In this document: positions 15,320-22,736 of the stretch, piece after piece
Position numbering within the stretch: position 1 is the stretch's first letter
How the letters are laid out: every line of letters begins with the position of its first letter
Source: Escherichia coli
GTDB taxonomy: Bacteria; Pseudomonadota; Gammaproteobacteria; Enterobacterales; Enterobacteriaceae
Length of the DNA: 64,000 nt
NCBI RefSeq assembly: GCF_046105845.1
Contig: NZ_CP151004.1
Reading direction: 5' to 3' (one strand)
Program-made: the position numbers and the translations under genes
The notes under the pieces: model-generated
Seen by the model: the letters and a program-made list of their open reading frames with translations, nothing else
The model's database searches: none
Told to the model about the DNA's origin: nothing

Positions 15320-16429
15320 ATGAACGAACAATCCCAGGCCAAATCACCAGAAGCCTTGCGCGCAATGGTCGCCGGGACACTGGCCAATTTTCAGCACCCA
15401 ACCCTGAAGCATAACCTCACCACGCTGAAAGCGTTGCACCATGTCGCCTGGATGGACGACACGCTGCATGTGGAACTGGTTATGCCATTCGTCTGGCATA
15501 GCGCGTTCGAAGAGTTAAAAGAGCAATGTAGCGCCGAACTGCTGCGCATCACCGGAGCGAAAGCTATCGACTGGAAACTGTCGCATAACATAGCCACTCT
15601 GAAACGCGTGAAGAATCAGCCGGGAATTAACGGCGTGAAGAACATTATCGCGGTCAGTTCCGGTAAAGGTGGCGTGGGTAAATCCTCCACGGCGGTAAAC
15701 CTGGCGTTGGCACTGGCGGCGGAAGGGGCGAAAGTCGGCATTCTGGACGCCGATATCTACGGCCCATCAATCCCTACCATGCTGGGCGCAGAAAATCAGC
15801 GTCCAACTTCGCCGGACGGTACCCATATGGCACCGATTATGTCTCATGGACTGGCAACCAATTCAATTGGTTATCTGGTCACTGACGACAATGCGATGGT
15901 GTGGCGTGGTCCGATGGCGAGCAAGGCGTTAATGCAGATGTTGCAGGAAACCTTGTGGCCGGATCTCGACTATCTGGTGCTTGATATGCCGCCAGGCACC
16001 GGTGACATTCAATTGACACTGGCACAAAACATTCCAGTAACTGGTGCGGTCGTGGTCACCACCCCACAAGACATCGCGTTGATCGATGCGAAAAAAGGCA
16101 TTGTGATGTTCGAGAAAGTCGAGGTTCCGGTGCTTGGTATTGTCGAGAACATGAGTGTGCATATTTGCAGTAACTGTGGTCACCATGAACCGATTTTCGG
16201 TACCGGTGGTGCTGAGAAACTGGCTGAAAAATACCACACACAGCTGCTGGGGCAGATGCCGTTACACATCTCCTTACGTGAGGATCTCGATAAAGGCACG
16301 CCAACGGTTATCAGCCGTCCGGAGAGCGAATTTACCGCTATCTACCGCCAGCTGGCTGACCGCGTTGCAGCTCAGCTCTACTGGCAGGGTGAAGTCATTC
16401 CAGGCGAGATTTCCTTCCGCGCGGTCTAA
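15320..16429 (+). CDS. apbC: Fe-S cluster carrier ATPase Mrp/ApbC
   Basis: 369 aa from MNEQSQAKSPEAL; P-loop SGKGGVGKS; divergent from metG. Confidence 0.95.
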   Translation: MNEQSQAKSPEALRAMVAGTLANFQHPTLKHNLTTLKALHHVAWMDDTLHVELVMPFVWHSAFEELKEQCSAELLRITGAKAIDWKLSHNIATLKRVKNQPGINGVKNIIAVSSGKGGVGKSSTAVNLALALAAEGAKVGILDADIYGPSIPTMLGAENQRPTSPDGTHMAPIMSHGLATNSIGYLVTDDNAMVWRGPMASKALMQMLQETLWPDLDYLVLDMPPGTGDIQLTLAQNIPVTGAVVVTTPQDIALIDAKKGIVMFEKVEVPVLGIVENMSVHICSNCGHHEPIFGTGGAEKLAEKYHTQLLGQMPLHISLREDLDKGTPTVISRPESEFTAIYRQLADRVAAQLYWQGEVIPGEISFRAV

Positions 16430-16458
16430 CGCCTATTAACCATTCTGGTTATTCTTTA

Positions 16459-16500
16459 TACACCGCAGAGATGTTACATTGATGCGGTGTATTTGTTTTT
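16459..16500 (+). terminator. Rho-independent terminator after apbC
   Basis: 9-bp stem tacaccgca/tgcggtgta followed by tttgttttt. Confidence 0.6.
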
Positions 16501-16691
16501 GCTGCATTAATGAACACTTATTTAATGCTGCGAATATTCTGCGGACCTTCGTCCGAAACTCTATAAAGTCGATTGATCGTACAGGCAATGCTTCATTATC
16601 ATCCTTCGTGGCTGTGTAGTGGATGTACAGCTATAGTTTGTTATGCACTCATTCTATCCAGGCATAACCTTTACTACAGGGATAACGTTCA

Positions 16692-16973
16692 ATGAATAAG
16701 TACTGGCTGTCAGGAATTATTTTTCTTGCCTATGGAATGGCTTCTCCCGCGTTCTCTTCACAGACTGCCACATTAACGATTAATGGCAGGATCAGTCCCC
16801 CAACATGCAGTATGGCTATGGTTAATGGTCAACCTCAACAGCATTGTGGTCAGTTAACGTATGATGTTGATACCCGTCATCAGGTTTCTTCGCCAGTCAA
16901 AGGTGTAACGACAGAAGTGGTTGTTGCAGGTAGCGATAGCAAACGTCGAATCGTGTTAAATCGCTACGATTAA
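16692..16973 (+). CDS. yehE: Small secreted protein upstream of the yeh fimbrial operon
   Basis: 93-aa ORF with N-terminal signal peptide. Confidence 0.75.
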   Translation: MNKYWLSGIIFLAYGMASPAFSSQTATLTINGRISPPTCSMAMVNGQPQQHCGQLTYDVDTRHQVSSPVKGVTTEVVVAGSDSKRRIVLNRYD

Positions 16974-17006
16974 TTTGCCACCCTGGTTTTTTAATCGAAT
17001 TTAGAA

Positions 17007-17046
17007 AGCTGAAATCATTCGCGTGAATGATTTCAGCTTTTTTATT
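17007..17046 (+). terminator. Rho-independent terminator after yehE
   Basis: Stem agctgaaatcattc/gaatgatttcagct followed by tttttatt. Confidence 0.7.
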
Positions 17047-17268
17047 GATATCAATAATATCATTTACAAAAATCTGCATTAATTAATAGATGTGATAAAT
17101 ATTTAATATGCTTAAGTATTTGTTGTATTTATATTGCAATAGTTAATTTGTTTTAAATCAATAAAACAATATGTTTACATTGCGGCAACTTTTTTGATGT
17201 GAGAAATTTGTTTCCAAGAGATACAGACTCTTAACAACCAAAAAATAAATTTTATTAAGGAACATATT

Positions 17269-17811
17269 ATGAAACGTTCAATTATTGCTGCCGCTGTTTT
17301 TTCTTCTTTTTTTATGAGTGCTGGGGTATTTGCCGCAGACGTTGATACCGGAACATTAAGTATTAAAGGGAATATTGCAGAATCTCCGTGTAAATTCGAA
17401 GCGGGTGGCGATTCAGTAAGTATTAATATGCCAACTGTACCAACCACTGTCTTTGAAGGTAAAGCTAAATACTCGACCTATGATGATGCAGTCGGTGTAA
17501 CCAGCAGCATGTTAAAAATTAGCTGTCCGAAAGAAGTTGCTGGTGTAAAACTCTCGTTGATTACCAACGATAAAATAACCGGAAACGATAAGGCGATAGC
17601 CAGTAGCAACGATACCGTGGGGTACTATCTCTATTTAGGTGATAACAGCGATGTCCTGGATGTTTCTGCACCTTTTAACATTGAGAGTTATAAAACAGCG
17701 GAAGGTCAATATGCTATTCCGTTTAAAGCAAAATACCTGAAGCTGACAGATAATTCAGTGCAATCAGGTGATGTGTTATCTTCTCTGGTTATGCGTGTGG
17801 CGCAGGATTAA
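17269..17811 (+). CDS. yehD: Fimbrial major subunit (chaperone-usher family)
   Basis: 180 aa, signal peptide, conserved Cys pair, fimbrial-like C-terminus. Confidence 0.85.
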   Translation: MKRSIIAAAVFSSFFMSAGVFAADVDTGTLSIKGNIAESPCKFEAGGDSVSINMPTVPTTVFEGKAKYSTYDDAVGVTSSMLKISCPKEVAGVKLSLITNDKITGNDKAIASSNDTVGYYLYLGDNSDVLDVSAPFNIESYKTAEGQYAIPFKAKYLKLTDNSVQSGDVLSSLVMRVAQD

Positions 17812-17845
17812 TAAATAAAATTTCAAGTTTCTCCAGTTAATAAAC

Positions 17846-17875
17846 ATGGCCGCTATCCCCATGGCGGCCTTTTAA
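17846..17875 (+). terminator. Probable intra-operon attenuator between subunit and chaperone genes
   Basis: GC hairpin ggccgc...gcggcc followed by tttt. Confidence 0.45.
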
Positions 17876-17891
17876 TTTAAGAGGCATTAAG

Positions 17892-18566
17892 ATGAAAGGA
17901 TTATTAGCTTTACTCATTTCTTCTATGGTCCTTCCTGCACATGCCGGTATTGTTATCTACGGGACGCGTATTATTTACCCGGCAGAAAATAAAGAAGTGA
18001 TGGTGCAGTTGATGAATCAGGGAAACCGTTCTTCGCTGCTGCAGGCGTGGATTGATGATGGCGATACGTCGTTACCACCAGAAAAAATTCAGGTTCCTTT
18101 CATGTTAACGCCACCAGTGGCAAAAATAGGGGCAAATTCCGGGCAGCAAGTAAAAATCAAAATTATGCCGAATAAACTGCCTACTAATAAAGAGAGCATT
18201 TTTTATCTGAATGTTCTGGATATTCCACCAAATAGTCCAGAGCAAGAGGGCAAGAATGCACTGAAATTTGCAATGCAAAACAGAATTAAATTGTTTTACC
18301 GGCCTGCGGGTATTGCACCGGTAAATAAAGCGACATTTAAAAAGTTACTGGTAAATCGCAGTGGCAATGGATTGGTGATAAAAAATGACTCAGCAAATTG
18401 GGTAACGATTTCGGATGTCAAAGCTAATAATGTCAAAGTCAATTATGAAACTATTATGATTGCCCCCTTAGAAAGTCAGAGTATTAATGTCAAAAATAAT
18501 AATGCGAATAACTGGTACCTGACCATTATCGATGACCATGGCAACTATATTAGTGACAAAATTTAA
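17892..18566 (+). CDS. yehC: Periplasmic fimbrial chaperone
   Basis: 224 aa, signal peptide, PapD-like; GAGG ribosome-binding site upstream. Confidence 0.85.
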   Translation: MKGLLALLISSMVLPAHAGIVIYGTRIIYPAENKEVMVQLMNQGNRSSLLQAWIDDGDTSLPPEKIQVPFMLTPPVAKIGANSGQQVKIKIMPNKLPTNKESIFYLNVLDIPPNSPEQEGKNALKFAMQNRIKLFYRPAGIAPVNKATFKKLLVNRSGNGLVIKNDSANWVTISDVKANNVKVNYETIMIAPLESQSINVKNNNANNWYLTIIDDHGNYISDKI

Positions 18567-18581
18567 TTGCAGGAGCTGCCT

Positions 18582-21062
18582 ATGTTGAGAATGACCCCAC
18601 TTGCATCAGCAATCGTAGCGTTATTGCTCGGCATTGAAGCTTATGCAGCTGAAGAAACCTTTGATACCCATTTTATGATAGGTGGAGTGAAAGATCAGCA
18701 GGTTGCAAATATTCGTCTTGATGATAATCAACCCTTGCCGGGGCAGTATGACATCGATATTTATGTCAATAAGCAATGGCGCGGGAAATATGAGATCATT
18801 GTTAAAGACAACCCGCAAGAAACATGTTTATCAAGGGAAATTATCAAGCGGTTAGGCATTAATACCGATAACTTTGCCAGCGGTAAGCAATGTTTAACAT
18901 TTGAGCAACTTGTTCAGGGAGGGAGCTATACCTGGGATATCGGAGTTTTTCGTCTCGATTTCAGTGTCCCGCAGGCGTGGGTGGAAGAACTGGAAAGTGG
19001 CTATGTTCCACCGGAAAACTGGGAGCGGGGTATTAATGCGTTTTATACCTCTTATTATGTGAGTCAGTATTACAGCGACTATAAAGCGTCGGGTAATAGC
19101 AAGAGTACATATGTACGTTTTAACAGCGGGTTAAACTTACTGGGGTGGCAACTGCATTCTGATGCCAGTTTCAGTAAAACAAATAGCAATCCAGGGGTGT
19201 GGAAAAGCAATACCCTGTATCTGGAACGTGGATTTGCCCAACTTCTCGGCACGCTTCGCGTGGGTGATATGTACACATCAAGCGATATTTTTGATTCTGT
19301 TCGCTTCAGCGGTGTGCGGTTGTTTCGTGATATGCAGATGTTGCCTAACTCGAAACAAAATTTTACTCCACGGGTGCAGGGGATTGCTCAGAGTAACGCG
19401 CTGGTAACTATTGAACAGAACGGTTTTGTGGTTTATCAGAAAGAGGTTCCTCCTGGCCCGTTTGCGATTACAGATTTGCAGTTGGCCGGTGGTGGAGCGG
19501 ATCTTGATGTCAGCGTGAAAGAGGCGGACGGTTCGGTAACCACCTATCTGGTGCCTTATGCAGCGGTGCCAAATATGCTGCAACCTGGCGTATCGAAATA
19601 TGATTTTGCGGCGGGTCGTAGCCATATTGAAGGGGCAAGCAAACAAAGTGATTTTGTCCAGGCGGGTTATCAGTATGGTTTTAATAATTTATTGACGCTG
19701 TATGGTGGCTCGATGGTCGCGAATAATTATTACGCGTTCACTTTGGGGACTGGCTGGAATACACGCATTGGTGCCATTTCCGTCGATGCCACGAAGTCGC
19801 ATAGTAAACAAGACAACGGCGATGTGTTTGACGGGCAAAGTTATCAAATTGCCTACAACAAATTTGTGAGCCAAACGTCGACGCGTTTTGGTCTGGCGGC
19901 CTGGCGTTATTCGTCGCGTGATTACCGGACATTTAACGATCACGTTTGGGCAAACAATAAAGATAATTATCGCCGTGATGAAAACGATATCTATGACATT
20001 GCCGATTATTACCAGAACGATTTTGGCCGTAAAAATAGCTTTTCTGCCAATATGAGCCAGTCATTGCCAGAAGGCTGGGGTTCTGTGTCCTTAAGTACGT
20101 TATGGCGAGATTACTGGGGGCGTAGCGGCAGCAGTAAGGATTATCAGTTGAGTTATTCCAACAACCTGCGACGGATAAGCTATACCCTCGCGGCAAGCCA
20201 GGCTTATGACGAGAATCATCATGAAGAGAAACGTTTTAATATTTTTATATCGATTCCCTTTGATTGGGGTGATGACGTTACGACGCCTCGTCGGCAAATA
20301 TATATGTCTAACTCAACGACGTTTGATGATCAGGGTTTTGCCTCAAATAATACGGGATTATCGGGAACCGTTGGAAGCCGGGATCAATTTAACTATGGGG
20401 TCAACCTGAGTCATCAGCATCAGGGAAATGAAACGACAGCTGGAGCGAATTTAACCTGGAACGCGCCGGTTGCGACAGTGAATGGCAGTTATAGTCAGTC
20501 GAGTACTTATCGACAGGCTGGAGCCAGTGTTTCAGGGGGCATTGTCGCCTGGTCGGGGGGCGTTAATCTGGCGAACCGTCTTTCCGAAACGTTTGCAGTG
20601 ATGAATGCGCCAGGAATTAAAGATGCTTATGTCAATGGGCAAAAATATCGCACAACAAACCGTAATGGAGTGGTGGTATACGACGGAATGACACCTTATC
20701 GGGAAAATCACCTGATGCTGGATGTGTCGCAAAGCGATAGCGAAGCAGAATTGCGCGGTAACCGGAAAATTGCCGCCCCTTTTCGCGGCGCGGTTGTACT
20801 GGTTAATTTTGATACCGATCAGCGCAAGCCCTGGTTTATAAAAGCGTTAAGAGCGGATGGGCAACCATTAACGTTTGGTTATGAAGTCAATGATATCCAC
20901 GGTCATAATATTGGCGTTGTCGGCCAGGGAAGTCAGTTATTTATTCGCACCAATGAAGTACCGCCATCGGTTAATGTAGCAATTGATAAGCAACAAGGAC
21001 TTTCATGCACAATCACCTTCGGTAAAGAGATTGATGAAAGTAGAAATTATATCTGTTGGTGA
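18582..21062 (+). CDS. yehB: Outer-membrane fimbrial usher
   Basis: 826 aa from MLRMTPLASAIV; usher-family size and composition. Confidence 0.9.
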   Translation: MLRMTPLASAIVALLLGIEAYAAEETFDTHFMIGGVKDQQVANIRLDDNQPLPGQYDIDIYVNKQWRGKYEIIVKDNPQETCLSREIIKRLGINTDNFASGKQCLTFEQLVQGGSYTWDIGVFRLDFSVPQAWVEELESGYVPPENWERGINAFYTSYYVSQYYSDYKASGNSKSTYVRFNSGLNLLGWQLHSDASFSKTNSNPGVWKSNTLYLERGFAQLLGTLRVGDMYTSSDIFDSVRFSGVRLFRDMQMLPNSKQNFTPRVQGIAQSNALVTIEQNGFVVYQKEVPPGPFAITDLQLAGGGADLDVSVKEADGSVTTYLVPYAAVPNMLQPGVSKYDFAAGRSHIEGASKQSDFVQAGYQYGFNNLLTLYGGSMVANNYYAFTLGTGWNTRIGAISVDATKSHSKQDNGDVFDGQSYQIAYNKFVSQTSTRFGLAAWRYSSRDYRTFNDHVWANNKDNYRRDENDIYDIADYYQNDFGRKNSFSANMSQSLPEGWGSVSLSTLWRDYWGRSGSSKDYQLSYSNNLRRISYTLAASQAYDENHHEEKRFNIFISIPFDWGDDVTTPRRQIYMSNSTTFDDQGFASNNTGLSGTVGSRDQFNYGVNLSHQHQGNETTAGANLTWNAPVATVNGSYSQSSTYRQAGASVSGGIVAWSGGVNLANRLSETFAVMNAPGIKDAYVNGQKYRTTNRNGVVVYDGMTPYRENHLMLDVSQSDSEAELRGNRKIAAPFRGAVVLVNFDTDQRKPWFIKALRADGQPLTFGYEVNDIHGHNIGVVGQGSQLFIRTNEVPPSVNVAIDKQQGLSCTITFGKEIDESRNYICW

Positions 21063-21072
21063 GAGGTGGAAT

Positions 21073-22107
21073 ATGATGTTCAGAAATGGAATGTTACTAA
21101 TATTTATTTTATGGGTTAATTTTACCTGGGCTGGATGTCGTACCACTGCATCATTAAATATTACTGATAGTATTAATGTGGGGGAGATTTTAGCGAATGA
21201 GGTTTCCTTTAGTAAAAGTGTTGTGTTTACTGGGATATCTTGTGATACGAGCACGGATAAAATAGTCTATAAAAATATCCAAAGTGATTGGGTTGAAGTC
21301 GGGCCTTTTGGTAATGGCGAAAAGTTAAAGGTTAAAATAGAGTCTTTAGGTAAAACCAGTGACACGATTGGGAAATCCAGCAATGCGCAGGCAGTATTAC
21401 CCTATGTGGTTAAAATATCTAAAGGCACACCTGATTTTACTGGAGAAAGAAAACCTACCTGGTTTCTTTCAGATACTGTGATTGCAAATATTGGCGGTGA
21501 GTCATCTTCATCCATTGACTTTTGGTTGAGCATTTGTAAGACATTGAAGATTAACTGGTGTGTAAGTTATCTCACCAGTAAACTGGCGGGGGATACATTT
21601 ACGCTTGGATTAAGTATTTCCTATTATCCTAAAAATACGACCTGTAAGCCTGAAAACACAATAATAAAAGTAGATGATATTGCCTTGTCCCAATTCAGAA
21701 GTCAGGGAAAGATTACGGCGAATAGTAAGGAAGGAATAATTACGTTGAAATGTGATAATCTTTTCGGCGACACAAAACAAGCATCGCGGAATATGGTCGT
21801 ATATCTTTCCAGCAGTGACTTAGTTACAGGAAGCAATACAATTTTGCGCGGCAACATAGATAATGGTGTAGGATTTGTGTTGGATCTAAAAGAACCACCC
21901 AAAGGGACTGAAGCAGCCATCAAAATTTCTGCTAGCGGCGATCAGGGCGCGGCGACATCATTATGGAAAACAGATAAAACCGGGGCTTCTTTAAATAGTA
22001 ATATTATTAATATACCTGTCCTGGCCAGTTACTACGTCTACGATACAAACAAAGTAAAATCTGGCGCACTACAGGCAACCGCATTAATCAACGTGAAATA
22101 CGACTAA
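21073..22107 (+). CDS. yehA: Fimbrial tip/adhesin-like subunit
   Basis: 344 aa from MMFRNGMLLIF; last gene of the operon. Confidence 0.8.
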   Translation: MMFRNGMLLIFILWVNFTWAGCRTTASLNITDSINVGEILANEVSFSKSVVFTGISCDTSTDKIVYKNIQSDWVEVGPFGNGEKLKVKIESLGKTSDTIGKSSNAQAVLPYVVKISKGTPDFTGERKPTWFLSDTVIANIGGESSSSIDFWLSICKTLKINWCVSYLTSKLAGDTFTLGLSISYYPKNTTCKPENTIIKVDDIALSQFRSQGKITANSKEGIITLKCDNLFGDTKQASRNMVVYLSSSDLVTGSNTILRGNIDNGVGFVLDLKEPPKGTEAAIKISASGDQGAATSLWKTDKTGASLNSNIINIPVLASYYVYDTNKVKSGALQATALINVKYD

Positions 22108-22154
22108 TAACGAGCAAGTGGCTAATAATAAAAAATAACAAGGTGTCTGCATTT

Positions 22155-22181
22155 CCCCCTCATGATGAGGGGGCTTTTTTT
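22155..22181 (+). terminator. Terminator after yehA, overlapping the rcnB stop
   Basis: Perfect hairpin ccccctcatgatgaggggg followed by cttttttt. Confidence 0.75.
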
Positions 22182-22518
22182 AGCGATGATAAAAAATCTC
22201 ACCGTCGTAGGCTTTAATGATTTTACCGTCGGTGTCGCTGATCAACACGTACGCGCCACCCATATAGGTCCAGTGCGTCCCGGCATCAGGCGCGGGCAGG
22301 TTACGTAACTGCCACTGCTTAATGTTGTACTCATCGGTGCGGTACATCTCTGGGACGGTATCGCCTGGTTTGAAATGCTTAAAGTCAGCAATGAAACTGC
22401 TTAACTCATACTTAGAAATTCCCGAGGTATTGGTCGAACCCGCGGTGGCTGGTGCGGCCCAGGCGGCACTGGTAACCAGCAAAAGCGCACCCAGCAACAT
22501 CTTATTTTTAATGGTCAT
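22180..22518 (-). CDS. rcnB: Periplasmic nickel/cobalt homeostasis protein
   Basis: 112 aa from MTIKNKMLLGALLLVTSAAWA; downstream of rcnA. Confidence 0.85.
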   Translation of the reverse strand: MTIKNKMLLGALLLVTSAAWAAPATAGSTNTSGISKYELSSFIADFKHFKPGDTVPEMYRTDEYNIKQWQLRNLPAPDAGTHWTYMGGAYVLISDTDGKIIKAYDGEIFYHR

Positions 22519-22736
22519 AAACTCTCCACTTTGGGGATCTGTAATATCAGTCGCATATCTTTCCTGCCATACAATATAACTGACAAGCGATATTTTGTTA
22601 GTGATCCCATGATTTCGTAAAAAGTGTAAATGAAAGGATGCCCTAAAAGCATCCTTAGCGAGCAGAGAGTCAGCGGAAATAGCTGATTTAAGAATCATCC
22701 TGGGCTGAAGATAACATGCAAACCTAAAGGATTGAG

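What the first reader, a model, noticed from the sequence alone, without database searches (positions are those of the whole stretch)
16974..22181. Cryptic chaperone-usher fimbrial operon with an internal attenuator-like hairpin
A 295-bp AT-rich region precedes yehD, consistent with H-NS-type silencing. A GC hairpin with a T-run (17846..17875) sits between the subunit and chaperone genes, which would set the stoichiometry of subunit to assembly machinery. A strong terminator closes the operon.
Basis: partly seen in the sequence, partly recalled or inferred. Interest (0 to 1): 0.3.

Follow-up and report, generated by a model that had tools for sequence, protein, structure and literature searches.

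The report
Known yeh fimbrial operon, conserved hairpin
This is the well-known, normally silent yehDCBA fimbrial operon of E. coli. The hairpin after its first gene is real and conserved, and is an ordinary example of how such operons make more pilus subunit than assembly machinery.

Summary
The region is the E. coli core locus apbC-yehE-yehDCBA/rcnB, an intact chaperone-usher operon already published as cryptic and H-NS-repressed.

- **AT-rich spacer:** the 295-bp region has 24.4% GC, the lowest in the 64-kb window.
- **Hairpin:** the yehD-yehC hairpin (17848-17869, 9 bp, -14.5 kcal/mol, tail UUUUAAUUU) is supported by three compensatory pairs across Escherichia.
- **Wider family:** a strong GC hairpin sits in the subunit-chaperone spacer of 38/38 closely related loci.
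- **T-run:** it is not conserved. It occurs in 5 of 11 Yeh orthologues and 15 of 38 close loci, and is absent from the O157:H7-type allele. The flanking yehE and yehA terminators keep theirs.

The conserved function is therefore a 3'-end-forming or protecting hairpin that favours yehD mRNA. Leaky intrinsic termination is an added, allele-specific feature, present in this window.

This is the pap/fim design, not a new mechanism. In passing: yehA here is a recombinant O157-type adhesin allele on a K-12-type operon.

The parts
17003..17046 (+). Intrinsic terminator of the upstream gene yehE. Stem 17003-17042 (core 17005-17020 / 17025-17040, loop GCGT) plus a T-run. It separates yehE from the yehD promoter region.
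   Evidence: The fold of the 87-nt stretch gives -28.2 kcal/mol, z = -6.9. Alignment across Escherichia shows compensatory arm changes, and the T-run is kept in all 6 sequences.
17044..17268 (+). AT-rich (21% GC) promoter and regulatory region of yehDCBA, the presumed H-NS target. The proximal block, about 17125-17268, is highly conserved.
   Evidence: GC statistics are. The 140 bp before the ATG are 88-90% identical to the O157-type allele and to E. albertii, against about 80% for the yehD coding sequence. H-NS regulon membership and derepression are from the literature. No transcription start site was mapped, and the consensus promoter hits are no more than chance.
17269..17811 (+). yehD, the major fimbrial subunit (180 aa).
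   Evidence: Pfam Fimbrial PF00419, E = 2.5e-7. RefSeq annotation.
17848..17869 (+). Intercistronic GC-rich RNA hairpin: 9-bp stem with one U-G pair, loop CCCC.
   Evidence: Covariation: 3 pairs changed on both sides and 95% of cells paired in 8 distinct Escherichia sequences. The sequence is unique in the window.
17870..17878 (+). Interrupted U-tract (TTTTAATTT) after the hairpin. It is specific to the K-12-type allele.
   Evidence: It is absent from the O157-type allele, E. albertii, E. whittamii and the two further Escherichia species genomes. The terminator score is +13.5 here and -37 for the O157 allele (formula recalled from memory).
17879..17884 (+). Shine-Dalgarno sequence AAGAGG of yehC, 7 nt before the ATG.
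   Evidence: Read directly from the sequence. AGAGG is invariant in all 9 Escherichia sequences; the first base is T in one of them.
17892..18566 (+). yehC, the periplasmic chaperone (224 aa).
   Evidence: PapD_N E = 1.7e-41 and PapD_C E = 4.1e-8.
18582..21062 (+). yehB, the outer-membrane usher (826 aa). It starts 15 nt after yehC.
   Evidence: PapC_N, Usher (E = 5e-196) and PapC_C. Annotation.
21073..22107 (+). yehA, a two-domain putative tip adhesin (344 aa). This is the O157-type allele.
   Evidence: Pfam Fimbrial domain at residues 186-344. It is 91% identical to O157 YehA, and only 46% identical to K-12 YehA over the C-terminal 200 aa.
22155..22181 (+). Operon-end intrinsic terminator: 8-bp stem with 6 G-C pairs, a 3-nt loop, then C and T7. 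The T-run overlaps the stop codon of the convergent gene rcnB.
   Evidence: Conserved with its T7 in K-12 and O157 alleles.

Best explanation
The region is the intact, normally silent yehDCBA chaperone-usher fimbrial operon. Transcription starts somewhere in the ~225-bp, 21%-GC region between the yehE terminator and yehD. H-NS normally holds it off, and antagonists such as SlyA relieve this. Inside the operon, the only sizeable spacer (80 nt, yehD-yehC) carries a conserved GC-rich RNA hairpin. Its conserved job is to create and protect a 3' end just after the major-subunit cistron, so that yehD mRNA outlasts and outnumbers yehCBA mRNA. That yields many subunits per chaperone, usher and adhesin. 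In the K-12-type allele carried by this window, the hairpin is followed by U4AAU3. It should therefore also act as a leaky intrinsic terminator, producing the same yehD-only RNA directly. In the O157-type allele and in most related operons there is no U-tract. There the 3' end must arise by processing or decay stalling at the stem. The sequence features, their conservation and the covariation are shown here. The RNA 3' end, read-through fraction, half-lives and effect on protein ratio are inferred.
For: Operon identity. Silencing: GC 24.4%, the lowest in the window; the published H-NS regulon listing (codes K, O), SlyA induction and H-NS repression (PMC5797941). Hairpin: -14.5 kcal/mol, spacer z = -4.06; 3 compensatory pairs, 95% pairing, and slid and shuffled controls far lower. 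Four sequences carry U-G where the others carry C-G, which fits an RNA stem on the + strand. A strong hairpin is present in 38/38 close and 21/38 distant subunit-chaperone spacers; mean z is -3.1 in the close set, with 30 of 38 below -2. In Citrobacter and the UBA5654 genome the hairpin has an unrelated sequence and a different position. The T-run occurs in only 5/11 Yeh orthologues, 15/38 close loci and 5/21 distant loci. The yehE and yehA terminators in the same genomes keep their T-runs. This allele scores as a terminator (+13.5) and the O157 allele does not (-37). Precedents: a partial terminator between papA and papH (PMC6524683); an RNase-resistant 3' structure on papA mRNA and 3' protective hairpins in general (PMC5927463); a fimA primary 3' end inside the fimA-fimI spacer, without a U-tract.
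Against: There are no expression data for yeh. No 3' end is reported for any yeh gene in the Term-seq supplement, as expected for a silent operon. yeh is also absent from the differential-decay operon list. The U-tract here is short and interrupted, so termination efficiency cannot be predicted. PMC5797941 states that all genes of the operon followed the same direction of regulation; that neither supports nor contradicts a level difference. Covariation rests on only 8 distinct, closely related sequences.
Confidence: 0.55

Rival explanations
1. A pure transcriptional attenuator. The hairpin plus T-run terminates a fixed fraction of RNA polymerases after yehD, and that alone sets the ratio. RNA stability plays no part.
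For: This allele has a canonical stem plus a U-rich tail. Its terminator score is +13.5. The pap operon has a documented partial terminator after papA (PMC6524683).
Against: The T-run is missing in 6 of 11 Yeh orthologues and in 23 of 38 close loci, although the stem is conserved by compensatory change. The flanking terminators keep their T-runs. The tract here is only U4 before it is interrupted.
Confidence: 0.2
2. A stabiliser only. The hairpin merely blocks 3'-to-5' exonucleases after endonucleolytic cleavage in yehCBA. The T-run in the K-12-type allele is incidental AT-rich sequence and causes negligible termination.
For: Hairpins without U-tracts dominate in related operons. The operon is AT-rich, so T-rich tails can arise by composition. 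The malE-type and papA-type protective hairpins are precedents.
Against: A 9-bp, 6-GC stem directly followed by UUUU is the core of a functional intrinsic terminator. The T4 is kept in all four K-12-type E. coli alleles examined (window, K-12 C600, L004, L005).
Confidence: 0.15
3. The spacer is the source of a 3'UTR-derived small RNA, like FimR2 from the fimA-fimI spacer, with regulatory targets elsewhere.
For: It has the same genomic position as FimR2, between the major-subunit gene and the next gene (PMC9723502). It contains a stable hairpin that could serve as an sRNA 3' end.
Against: There are no GGA (CsrA-type) motifs in the hairpin loop or flanks (direct reading). The sequence outside the stem is poorly conserved: the spacer is 65-70% identical between haplotypes. 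There is no Rfam match. The operon is silent under the conditions where sRNAs have been catalogued.
Confidence: 0.05
4. The palindrome has no RNA function. It is either a chance inverted repeat or a DNA-level binding site for a dimeric protein.
For: Compensatory changes also preserve a DNA palindrome. The simple terminator-pattern scan is not enriched in the region.
Against: U-G pairs in 4 of 8 sequences would be A-C mismatches on the other strand or in a DNA palindrome. Hairpins of unrelated sequence occupy the same spacer in 38/38 related loci, which argues for structure rather than a sequence motif. None of 200 shuffles fold as well.
Confidence: 0.05

Closest known systems
E. coli K-12 yehDCBA (Yeh fimbriae; Stc in Salmonella)
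   Same: Same locus, gene order and neighbours (apbC-yehE ... rcnB). yehE, yehD, yehC and yehB are 96-97% identical in nucleotide sequence to K-12. The operon is published as cryptic but functional, H-NS-repressed and SlyA-induced, and as core in E. coli and shared with Salmonella and Citrobacter (PMC3559732).
   Different: yehA here is the O157-type adhesin allele. It is 91% identical to O157 YehA, but only 46% identical to K-12 YehA over the C-terminal half, and the N-terminal domain does not align.
The pap operon terminator between papA and papH, and the stable papA mRNA
   Same: A stem-loop directly after the major-subunit gene lowers downstream transcripts and caps a stable subunit mRNA (PMC6524683; PMC5927463). 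The logic is the same: many subunits, little machinery.
   Different: In pap the mechanism is shown experimentally, and a 5' RNase E processing step (papB-papA) also contributes. yeh has no upstream regulator cistron and no experimental data. The next gene is the chaperone, not a minor subunit.
The fimA-fimI spacer: fimA 3' end and the FimR2 sRNA
   Same: A structured spacer after the major-subunit gene. In fim an RNA 3' end maps inside it without a U-tract and it is processed by RNase E (PMC9723502). This resembles the Yeh alleles that lack a U-tract.
   Different: FimR2 is a CsrA-binding sRNA with GGA motifs. The yeh spacer has none, and no small RNA is known from it.
3' protective hairpins of differential operon decay (malE-malF type)
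   Same: A stable, evolutionarily conserved stem-loop downstream of the most abundant, 5'-most cistron (PMC5927463).
   Different: The malEFG element is described in that paper only as a protective structure in the malE-malF spacer. The yeh hairpin is a single-copy sequence in this window. yeh is not in that study's operon list.

Membership tests
Chaperone-usher fimbrial operon | A PapD-like periplasmic chaperone with both N- and C-terminal domains. | tested here: met
   YehC: PapD_N E = 1.7e-41 and PapD_C E = 4.1e-8, both above the Pfam cut-offs.
Chaperone-usher fimbrial operon | An outer-membrane usher with PapC_N, Usher and PapC_C domains. | tested here: met
   YehB: Usher E = 5.2e-196, PapC_N E = 5.6e-34, PapC_C E = 5.9e-9.
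Chaperone-usher fimbrial operon | A fimbrial subunit gene, plus a larger two-domain adhesin with a C-terminal pilin domain. | tested here: met
   YehD has the Fimbrial domain at residues 31-169. YehA (344 aa) has it at 186-344, with an N-terminal ~185 aa that match no Pfam family.
Chaperone-usher fimbrial operon | Assembly of surface fimbriae when expressed. | not testable with these tools
   Korea et al. 2010, as cited in PMC5797941, placed the seven cryptic K-12 operons under a constitutive promoter; six proved functional and yeh expression enhanced biofilm formation. This was not tested for the present allele.
Intrinsic (Rho-independent) terminator or attenuator, for the yehD-yehC hairpin | A GC-rich stem-loop of about 5-14 bp with a short loop. 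| tested here: met
   9 bp, 6 G-C pairs, 4-nt loop, -14.5 kcal/mol.
Intrinsic (Rho-independent) terminator or attenuator, for the yehD-yehC hairpin | An uninterrupted U-tract immediately 3' of the stem. | tested here: inconclusive
   The tail is UUUUAAUUU: 4 U, then an interruption. It passes the 5-of-8 T rule and a recalled d'Aubenton-Carafa-type score (+13.5). It is weaker than the T6-T7 tracts of the yehE and yehA terminators.
Intrinsic (Rho-independent) terminator or attenuator, for the yehD-yehC hairpin | The U-tract is conserved together with the stem in orthologues. | tested here: not met
   A T-run is present in 5 of 11 Yeh orthologues. It is absent in the O157-type allele, E. albertii, E. 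whittamii, the two further Escherichia species genomes and UBA5654. It occurs in 15/38 close loci.
Intrinsic (Rho-independent) terminator or attenuator, for the yehD-yehC hairpin | An RNA 3' end at the U-tract in vivo or in vitro, with partial read-through. | not testable with these tools
   No yeh 3' ends appear in the Term-seq supplement of PMC7815308, because the operon is silent.
3' protective hairpin of differential operon mRNA decay | A stable stem-loop just downstream of the favoured cistron. | tested here: met
   The hairpin lies 36 nt after the yehD stop codon. It is present in 38/38 close loci, usually 8-40 nt after the stop.
3' protective hairpin of differential operon mRNA decay | The structure, not the sequence, is conserved through compensatory substitutions. 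| tested here: met
   3 pairs changed on both sides and 95% of cells paired. The covariation score is 0.149, against 0.107 +/- 0.011 in shuffles (0 of 500 reach it). With the 3' partners slid by 1-3 columns, 31-62% of cells pair, against 94% for the structure (both helices) as given. Citrobacter and UBA5654 carry hairpins of unrelated sequence.
3' protective hairpin of differential operon mRNA decay | A longer half-life or higher steady-state level of the upstream segment, dependent on the stem. | not testable with these tools
   This needs a rifampicin chase or Northern blots in a strain that expresses yeh.
H-NS-silenced locus | A markedly AT-rich promoter region relative to the genome. | tested here: met
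   GC is 24.4% (21% after the yehE terminator) against 50.7% for the window, the lowest in 64 kb. The operon is 42.5% GC.
H-NS-silenced locus | H-NS occupancy, and derepression in an hns mutant. | not testable with these tools
   Reported in the literature. PMC5797941 Table 2 marks yehDCBA in its H-NS regulon column (codes K and O), and its text says the operon is repressed by H-NS, citing Korea 2010. A scan for the 10-bp H-NS motif was uninformative.
FimR2-like 3'UTR-derived sRNA | GGA motifs for CsrA binding, and a discrete processed small RNA. | tested here: not met
   There is no GGA in the hairpin or its flanks between 17812 and 17891. There is no Rfam hit. The presence of the RNA itself could not be tested.

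The most novel reading that the evidence does not exclude
The T-run after the conserved hairpin is a natural on/off polymorphism. About 90% of complete E. coli genomes (K-12-type spacer, 4906 of 5426) would terminate part of transcription after yehD. The O157-type haplotype (369 of 5426), E. albertii and the other Escherichia species examined rely on RNA processing alone. The two deep haplotypes would then differ heritably in subunit-to-machinery ratio, and hence in fimbrial length or number. A weaker variant is that the hairpin-capped spacer is released as a FimR2-like regulatory RNA.
Probability: 0.12. Interest if true: 0.4.

Novelty: new member of a known kind. Interest (0 to 1): 0.18.

Why it matters
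The practical value is modest. The operon, its cryptic state and its H-NS control are already published. The hairpin adds one more instance of the classic arrangement of a stem-loop after the major pilin gene.

The comparative result does sharpen how such elements should be read. Across 76 related chaperone-usher loci the stem is the conserved part and the U-tract is optional. Annotating these hairpins as 'attenuators' from sequence alone therefore overstates termination and understates RNA 3'-end protection.

The paired K-12-type and O157-type alleles offer a ready-made natural experiment for separating the two mechanisms.

Tried and rejected
1. **Sequestration of the yehC Shine-Dalgarno.** The minimum-energy fold pairs AGAGG with an upstream GUUUCU tract, enclosing the hairpin. 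Predicted pairing probability is 0.59-0.86 in all 9 orthologues. However, shuffling the flanks gives mean pairing of 0.64-0.81. The observed value is exceeded in 3.5-80% of shuffles depending on the species. The helix also shows no two-sided covariation. Rejected as no better than composition.

2. **H-NS high-affinity motif (TCGATAAATT, up to 2 mismatches).** There are 85 hits in the window against 68 +/- 8 expected, and only 2 in the AT-rich spacer. Uninformative.

3. **Rfam scan of 16400-22700 at E <= 1.** It returned only two sub-threshold chance hits on the yehE and yehA terminator hairpins.

4. **REP or other repeat family, or an invertible element.** The hairpin is unique in the window at up to 3 mismatches. 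No meaningful direct or inverted repeat pairs flank the promoter.

5. **Direct transcript evidence.** No yeh entries appear in the Term-seq supplement of PMC7815308 or in the differential-decay tables of PMC5927463. Full-text searches combining yehD with terminator, sRNA or Term-seq found no paper containing yehD.

6. **Consensus sigma-70 promoter scan.** It found 12 hits against 17 +/- 5 expected, so no promoter can be assigned from sequence.

Full report
**What is there.** The stretch 16974-22181 lies in the E. coli chromosomal segment metG / apbC - yehE - yehD - yehC - yehB - yehA / rcnB - rcnA / rcnR.
- A 6-kb query around it matches 5423 of 5426 complete E. coli genomes, 5186 of them over at least 80% of its length. 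RefSeq annotation of three of these gives the same gene order.
- In window coordinates, all on the + strand: yehE 16692-16973, yehD 17269-17811, yehC 17892-18566, yehB 18582-21062 and yehA 21073-22107. rcnB converges from 22518 down to 22180.
- Pfam confirms a complete chaperone-usher system. YehD is a fimbrial subunit. YehC has PapD_N and PapD_C. YehB has PapC_N, Usher and PapC_C. YehA has a C-terminal pilin domain behind an unassigned N-terminal ~185 residues. YehE is a DUF2574 protein.
- All four operon genes are full length.

**Check of the three observations.**
- **AT-rich spacer.** The yehE-yehD spacer is exactly 295 bp with 24.4% GC, against 50.7% for the window. Only 0.09% of 295-bp windows are as low, and it is the only place in 64 kb at or below 30% GC.
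- **A missed terminator.** The first ~70 bp of that spacer hold a long A/U-rich hairpin with a T-run at 17003-17046. The 87-nt stretch folds at -28.2 kcal/mol with z = -6.9. Its arms change in a compensatory way across Escherichia and it always keeps its T-run. This is the yehE terminator. yehE is therefore a separate transcription unit, and the candidate yehD control region is about 225 bp with 21% GC.
- **The hairpin.** GGCCGCUAU-CCCC-AUGGCGGCC sits at 17848-17869 with tail UUUUAAUUUA. Its energy is -14.5 kcal/mol. The whole 80-nt spacer folds with z = -4.06. The sequence is unique in the window.
- **The operon-end terminator.** CCCCCUCA-UGA-UGAGGGGG is followed by C and U7 at 22155-22181. 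It is conserved in K-12 and O157 alleles. Its T-run overlaps the rcnB stop codon.
- **A caveat on counts.** Generic terminator-pattern hits are not enriched in the region (3 found, 4.8 expected). The argument rests on placement and conservation.

**H-NS and 'cryptic' are already known.**
- PMC5797941 lists yehDCBA as a cryptic chaperone-usher operon and marks it in the H-NS regulon column of its Table 2 (codes K and O). It reports 3.6-fold induction when the H-NS antagonist SlyA is over-produced.
- The same paper cites Korea et al. 2010 for two points: the operon is poorly expressed in the laboratory, enhances biofilm formation when driven by a constitutive promoter, and is repressed by H-NS.
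- PMC3559732 classes Yeh as a core-associated E. coli fimbria shared with Salmonella (Stc) and Citrobacter.
- The AT-richness measured here fits this picture but adds nothing new. A scan for the 10-bp H-NS motif was uninformative.

**The hairpin in comparison.** A scan of one genome per species with YehC returned 80 loci.
- **Covariation within Escherichia.** Nine sequences were aligned, eight of them distinct: the window, K-12, O157:H7, two other E. coli, E. whittamii, E. albertii and two further Escherichia species genomes.
  - The stem is paired in 95% of cells.
  - Three pairs are changed on both sides, for example G-C to A-U at two positions.
  - Four sequences carry U-G where the others have C-G.
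  - Shuffled and slid controls score far lower.
  - The U-G pairs point to an RNA stem on the + strand rather than a DNA palindrome.
- **More distant Yeh orthologues.** Citrobacter sp. Res13 and the UBA5654 genome (YehD 59-64% identical) carry a hairpin of unrelated sequence at a different distance from the stop codon.
- **The wider family.** All 38 close loci have a strong hairpin (at least 6 bp and 4 G-C pairs) in the subunit-chaperone spacer. This set includes paralogous operons in Salmonella, Citrobacter, Klebsiella, Superficieibacter and Edwardsiella. Mean folding z is -3.1, and 30 of 38 fall below -2. Of 38 more distant loci (Serratia, Acinetobacter, Pseudomonas, Burkholderiales), 21 have a strong hairpin.

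**The T-run is not part of the conserved element.**
- Only 15 of the 38 close hairpins and 5 of the 21 distant ones are followed by at least 5 T in 8.
- Among Yeh orthologues the figure is 5 of 11. The K-12-type E. coli alleles have UUUUAA. The O157:H7-type allele, E. whittamii, E. albertii and the two further Escherichia species genomes have tails such as AGCAUAAAUAU.
- A terminator score of the d'Aubenton-Carafa type (formula from memory) is +13.5 for the window allele, -37 for O157 and -28 for E. albertii.
- In the same genomes the yehE and yehA terminators keep their T-runs.
- Within E. coli the K-12-type spacer is found in 4906 of 5426 complete genomes. The O157-type is found in 369.

**Mechanism.**
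- The other two junctions of the operon are 15 and 10 nt long, so the yehD-yehC spacer is the only place for such an element.
- The best reading is that the hairpin defines and protects the 3' end of a yehD-only RNA, so that subunit message exceeds chaperone, usher and adhesin message.
- In this window's allele the U4AAU3 tail should add leaky intrinsic termination. In alleles without a U-tract the end must come from decay stalling at the stem.
- Both routes are established for other fimbrial operons:
  - a partial terminator between papA and papH (PMC6524683);
  - an RNase-resistant 3' structure on the stable papA mRNA, and protective 3' hairpins in general (PMC5927463);
  - a primary fimA 3' end inside the fimA-fimI spacer that lacks a U-tract, a region processed by RNase E into the sRNA FimR2 (PMC9723502).
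- For yeh none of this has been measured. No yeh 3' ends or decay data exist in the supplements searched, as expected for a silent operon.
- One microarray study of CFT073 mentions a change in yehD only, of 1.75-fold. This is anecdotal.

**Ideas that failed.**
- Occlusion of the yehC ribosome-binding site by a helix around the hairpin looked attractive in the minimum-energy fold. It is no stronger than in shuffled flanks and shows no covariation.
- No Rfam family matches.
- The hairpin is not a repeat family.
- There are no GGA motifs that would suggest a FimR2-like CsrA-binding sRNA.
- Consensus promoter hits are below the chance level, so the promoter remains unmapped.

**Verdict.**
The operon identity and the H-NS reading are right, but already published. 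The 'attenuator' label fits this allele, but comparative evidence shifts the conserved function to 3'-end formation and protection.
- The hairpin is a new, undocumented member of a well-known kind of element. Interest is low.

Noticed in passing
window 21073-22107 (yehA): yehA is a recombinant allele. It is 91% identical at the protein level to O157:H7 YehA. Against K-12 YehA it is only 46% identical over the C-terminal 200 aa, and the N-terminal (presumed receptor-binding) domain does not align. The rest of the operon is 96-97% identical to K-12. Nucleotide identity to the O157 haplotype rises steadily along the locus, from 75.5% in yehE to 91.5% in yehA.
   Followed up: partly
window 16692-22107; L003, L007: The whole yeh locus exists as two deep haplotypes within E. 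coli, about 76-92% identical gene by gene between the window and the O157 type. That is far more divergence than is typical for core genes (the last point is from general knowledge). The O157-type yehD-yehC spacer occurs in 369 of 5426 complete genomes. It is base-for-base identical to the spacer of Escherichia sp. E1V33, which suggests introgression or an old balanced polymorphism.
   Followed up: partly
window 17125-17268: The ~140 bp just upstream of the yehD start codon are more conserved than the yehD coding sequence itself. They are 88-90% identical to the O157-type allele and to E. albertii, against about 80% for yehD. The distal part of the spacer is only 66-69% identical. This points to constrained promoter, 5'UTR or regulator sites in a supposedly cryptic operon.
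   Followed up: partly
window 17003-17046: There is a strong intrinsic terminator for yehE, with an 18-bp A/U-rich stem and a T-run. The arms show compensatory changes across Escherichia. It makes the DUF2574 gene yehE a separate transcription unit from yehDCBA.
   Followed up: yes
window 22155-22182: The yehA terminator T-run overlaps the stop codon of the convergent gene rcnB (TAA, complement of 22180-22182). On the minus strand the same stem is followed by AAAUGC, not by a U-tract. It is therefore a one-directional terminator that rcnB transcripts also run into.
   Followed up: no
window about 22111 (yehA 3' untranslated region): The window lacks 9 bp (AAGCAAGAC/T) that are present in both the K-12 and O157 alleles. 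The missing bases lie within a short GCAAG direct repeat, which looks like a slippage deletion.
   Followed up: no
L017 (QFQM01000522.1): A 1980-bp contig binned as 'Flavobacterium psychrophilum' (a metagenome-assembled genome) carries a Yeh-like subunit-chaperone junction. Its 47-nt subunit-chaperone spacer differs from that of Citrobacter werkmanii (L015) only in the hairpin loop. It is probably a mis-binned enterobacterial contig.
   Followed up: no
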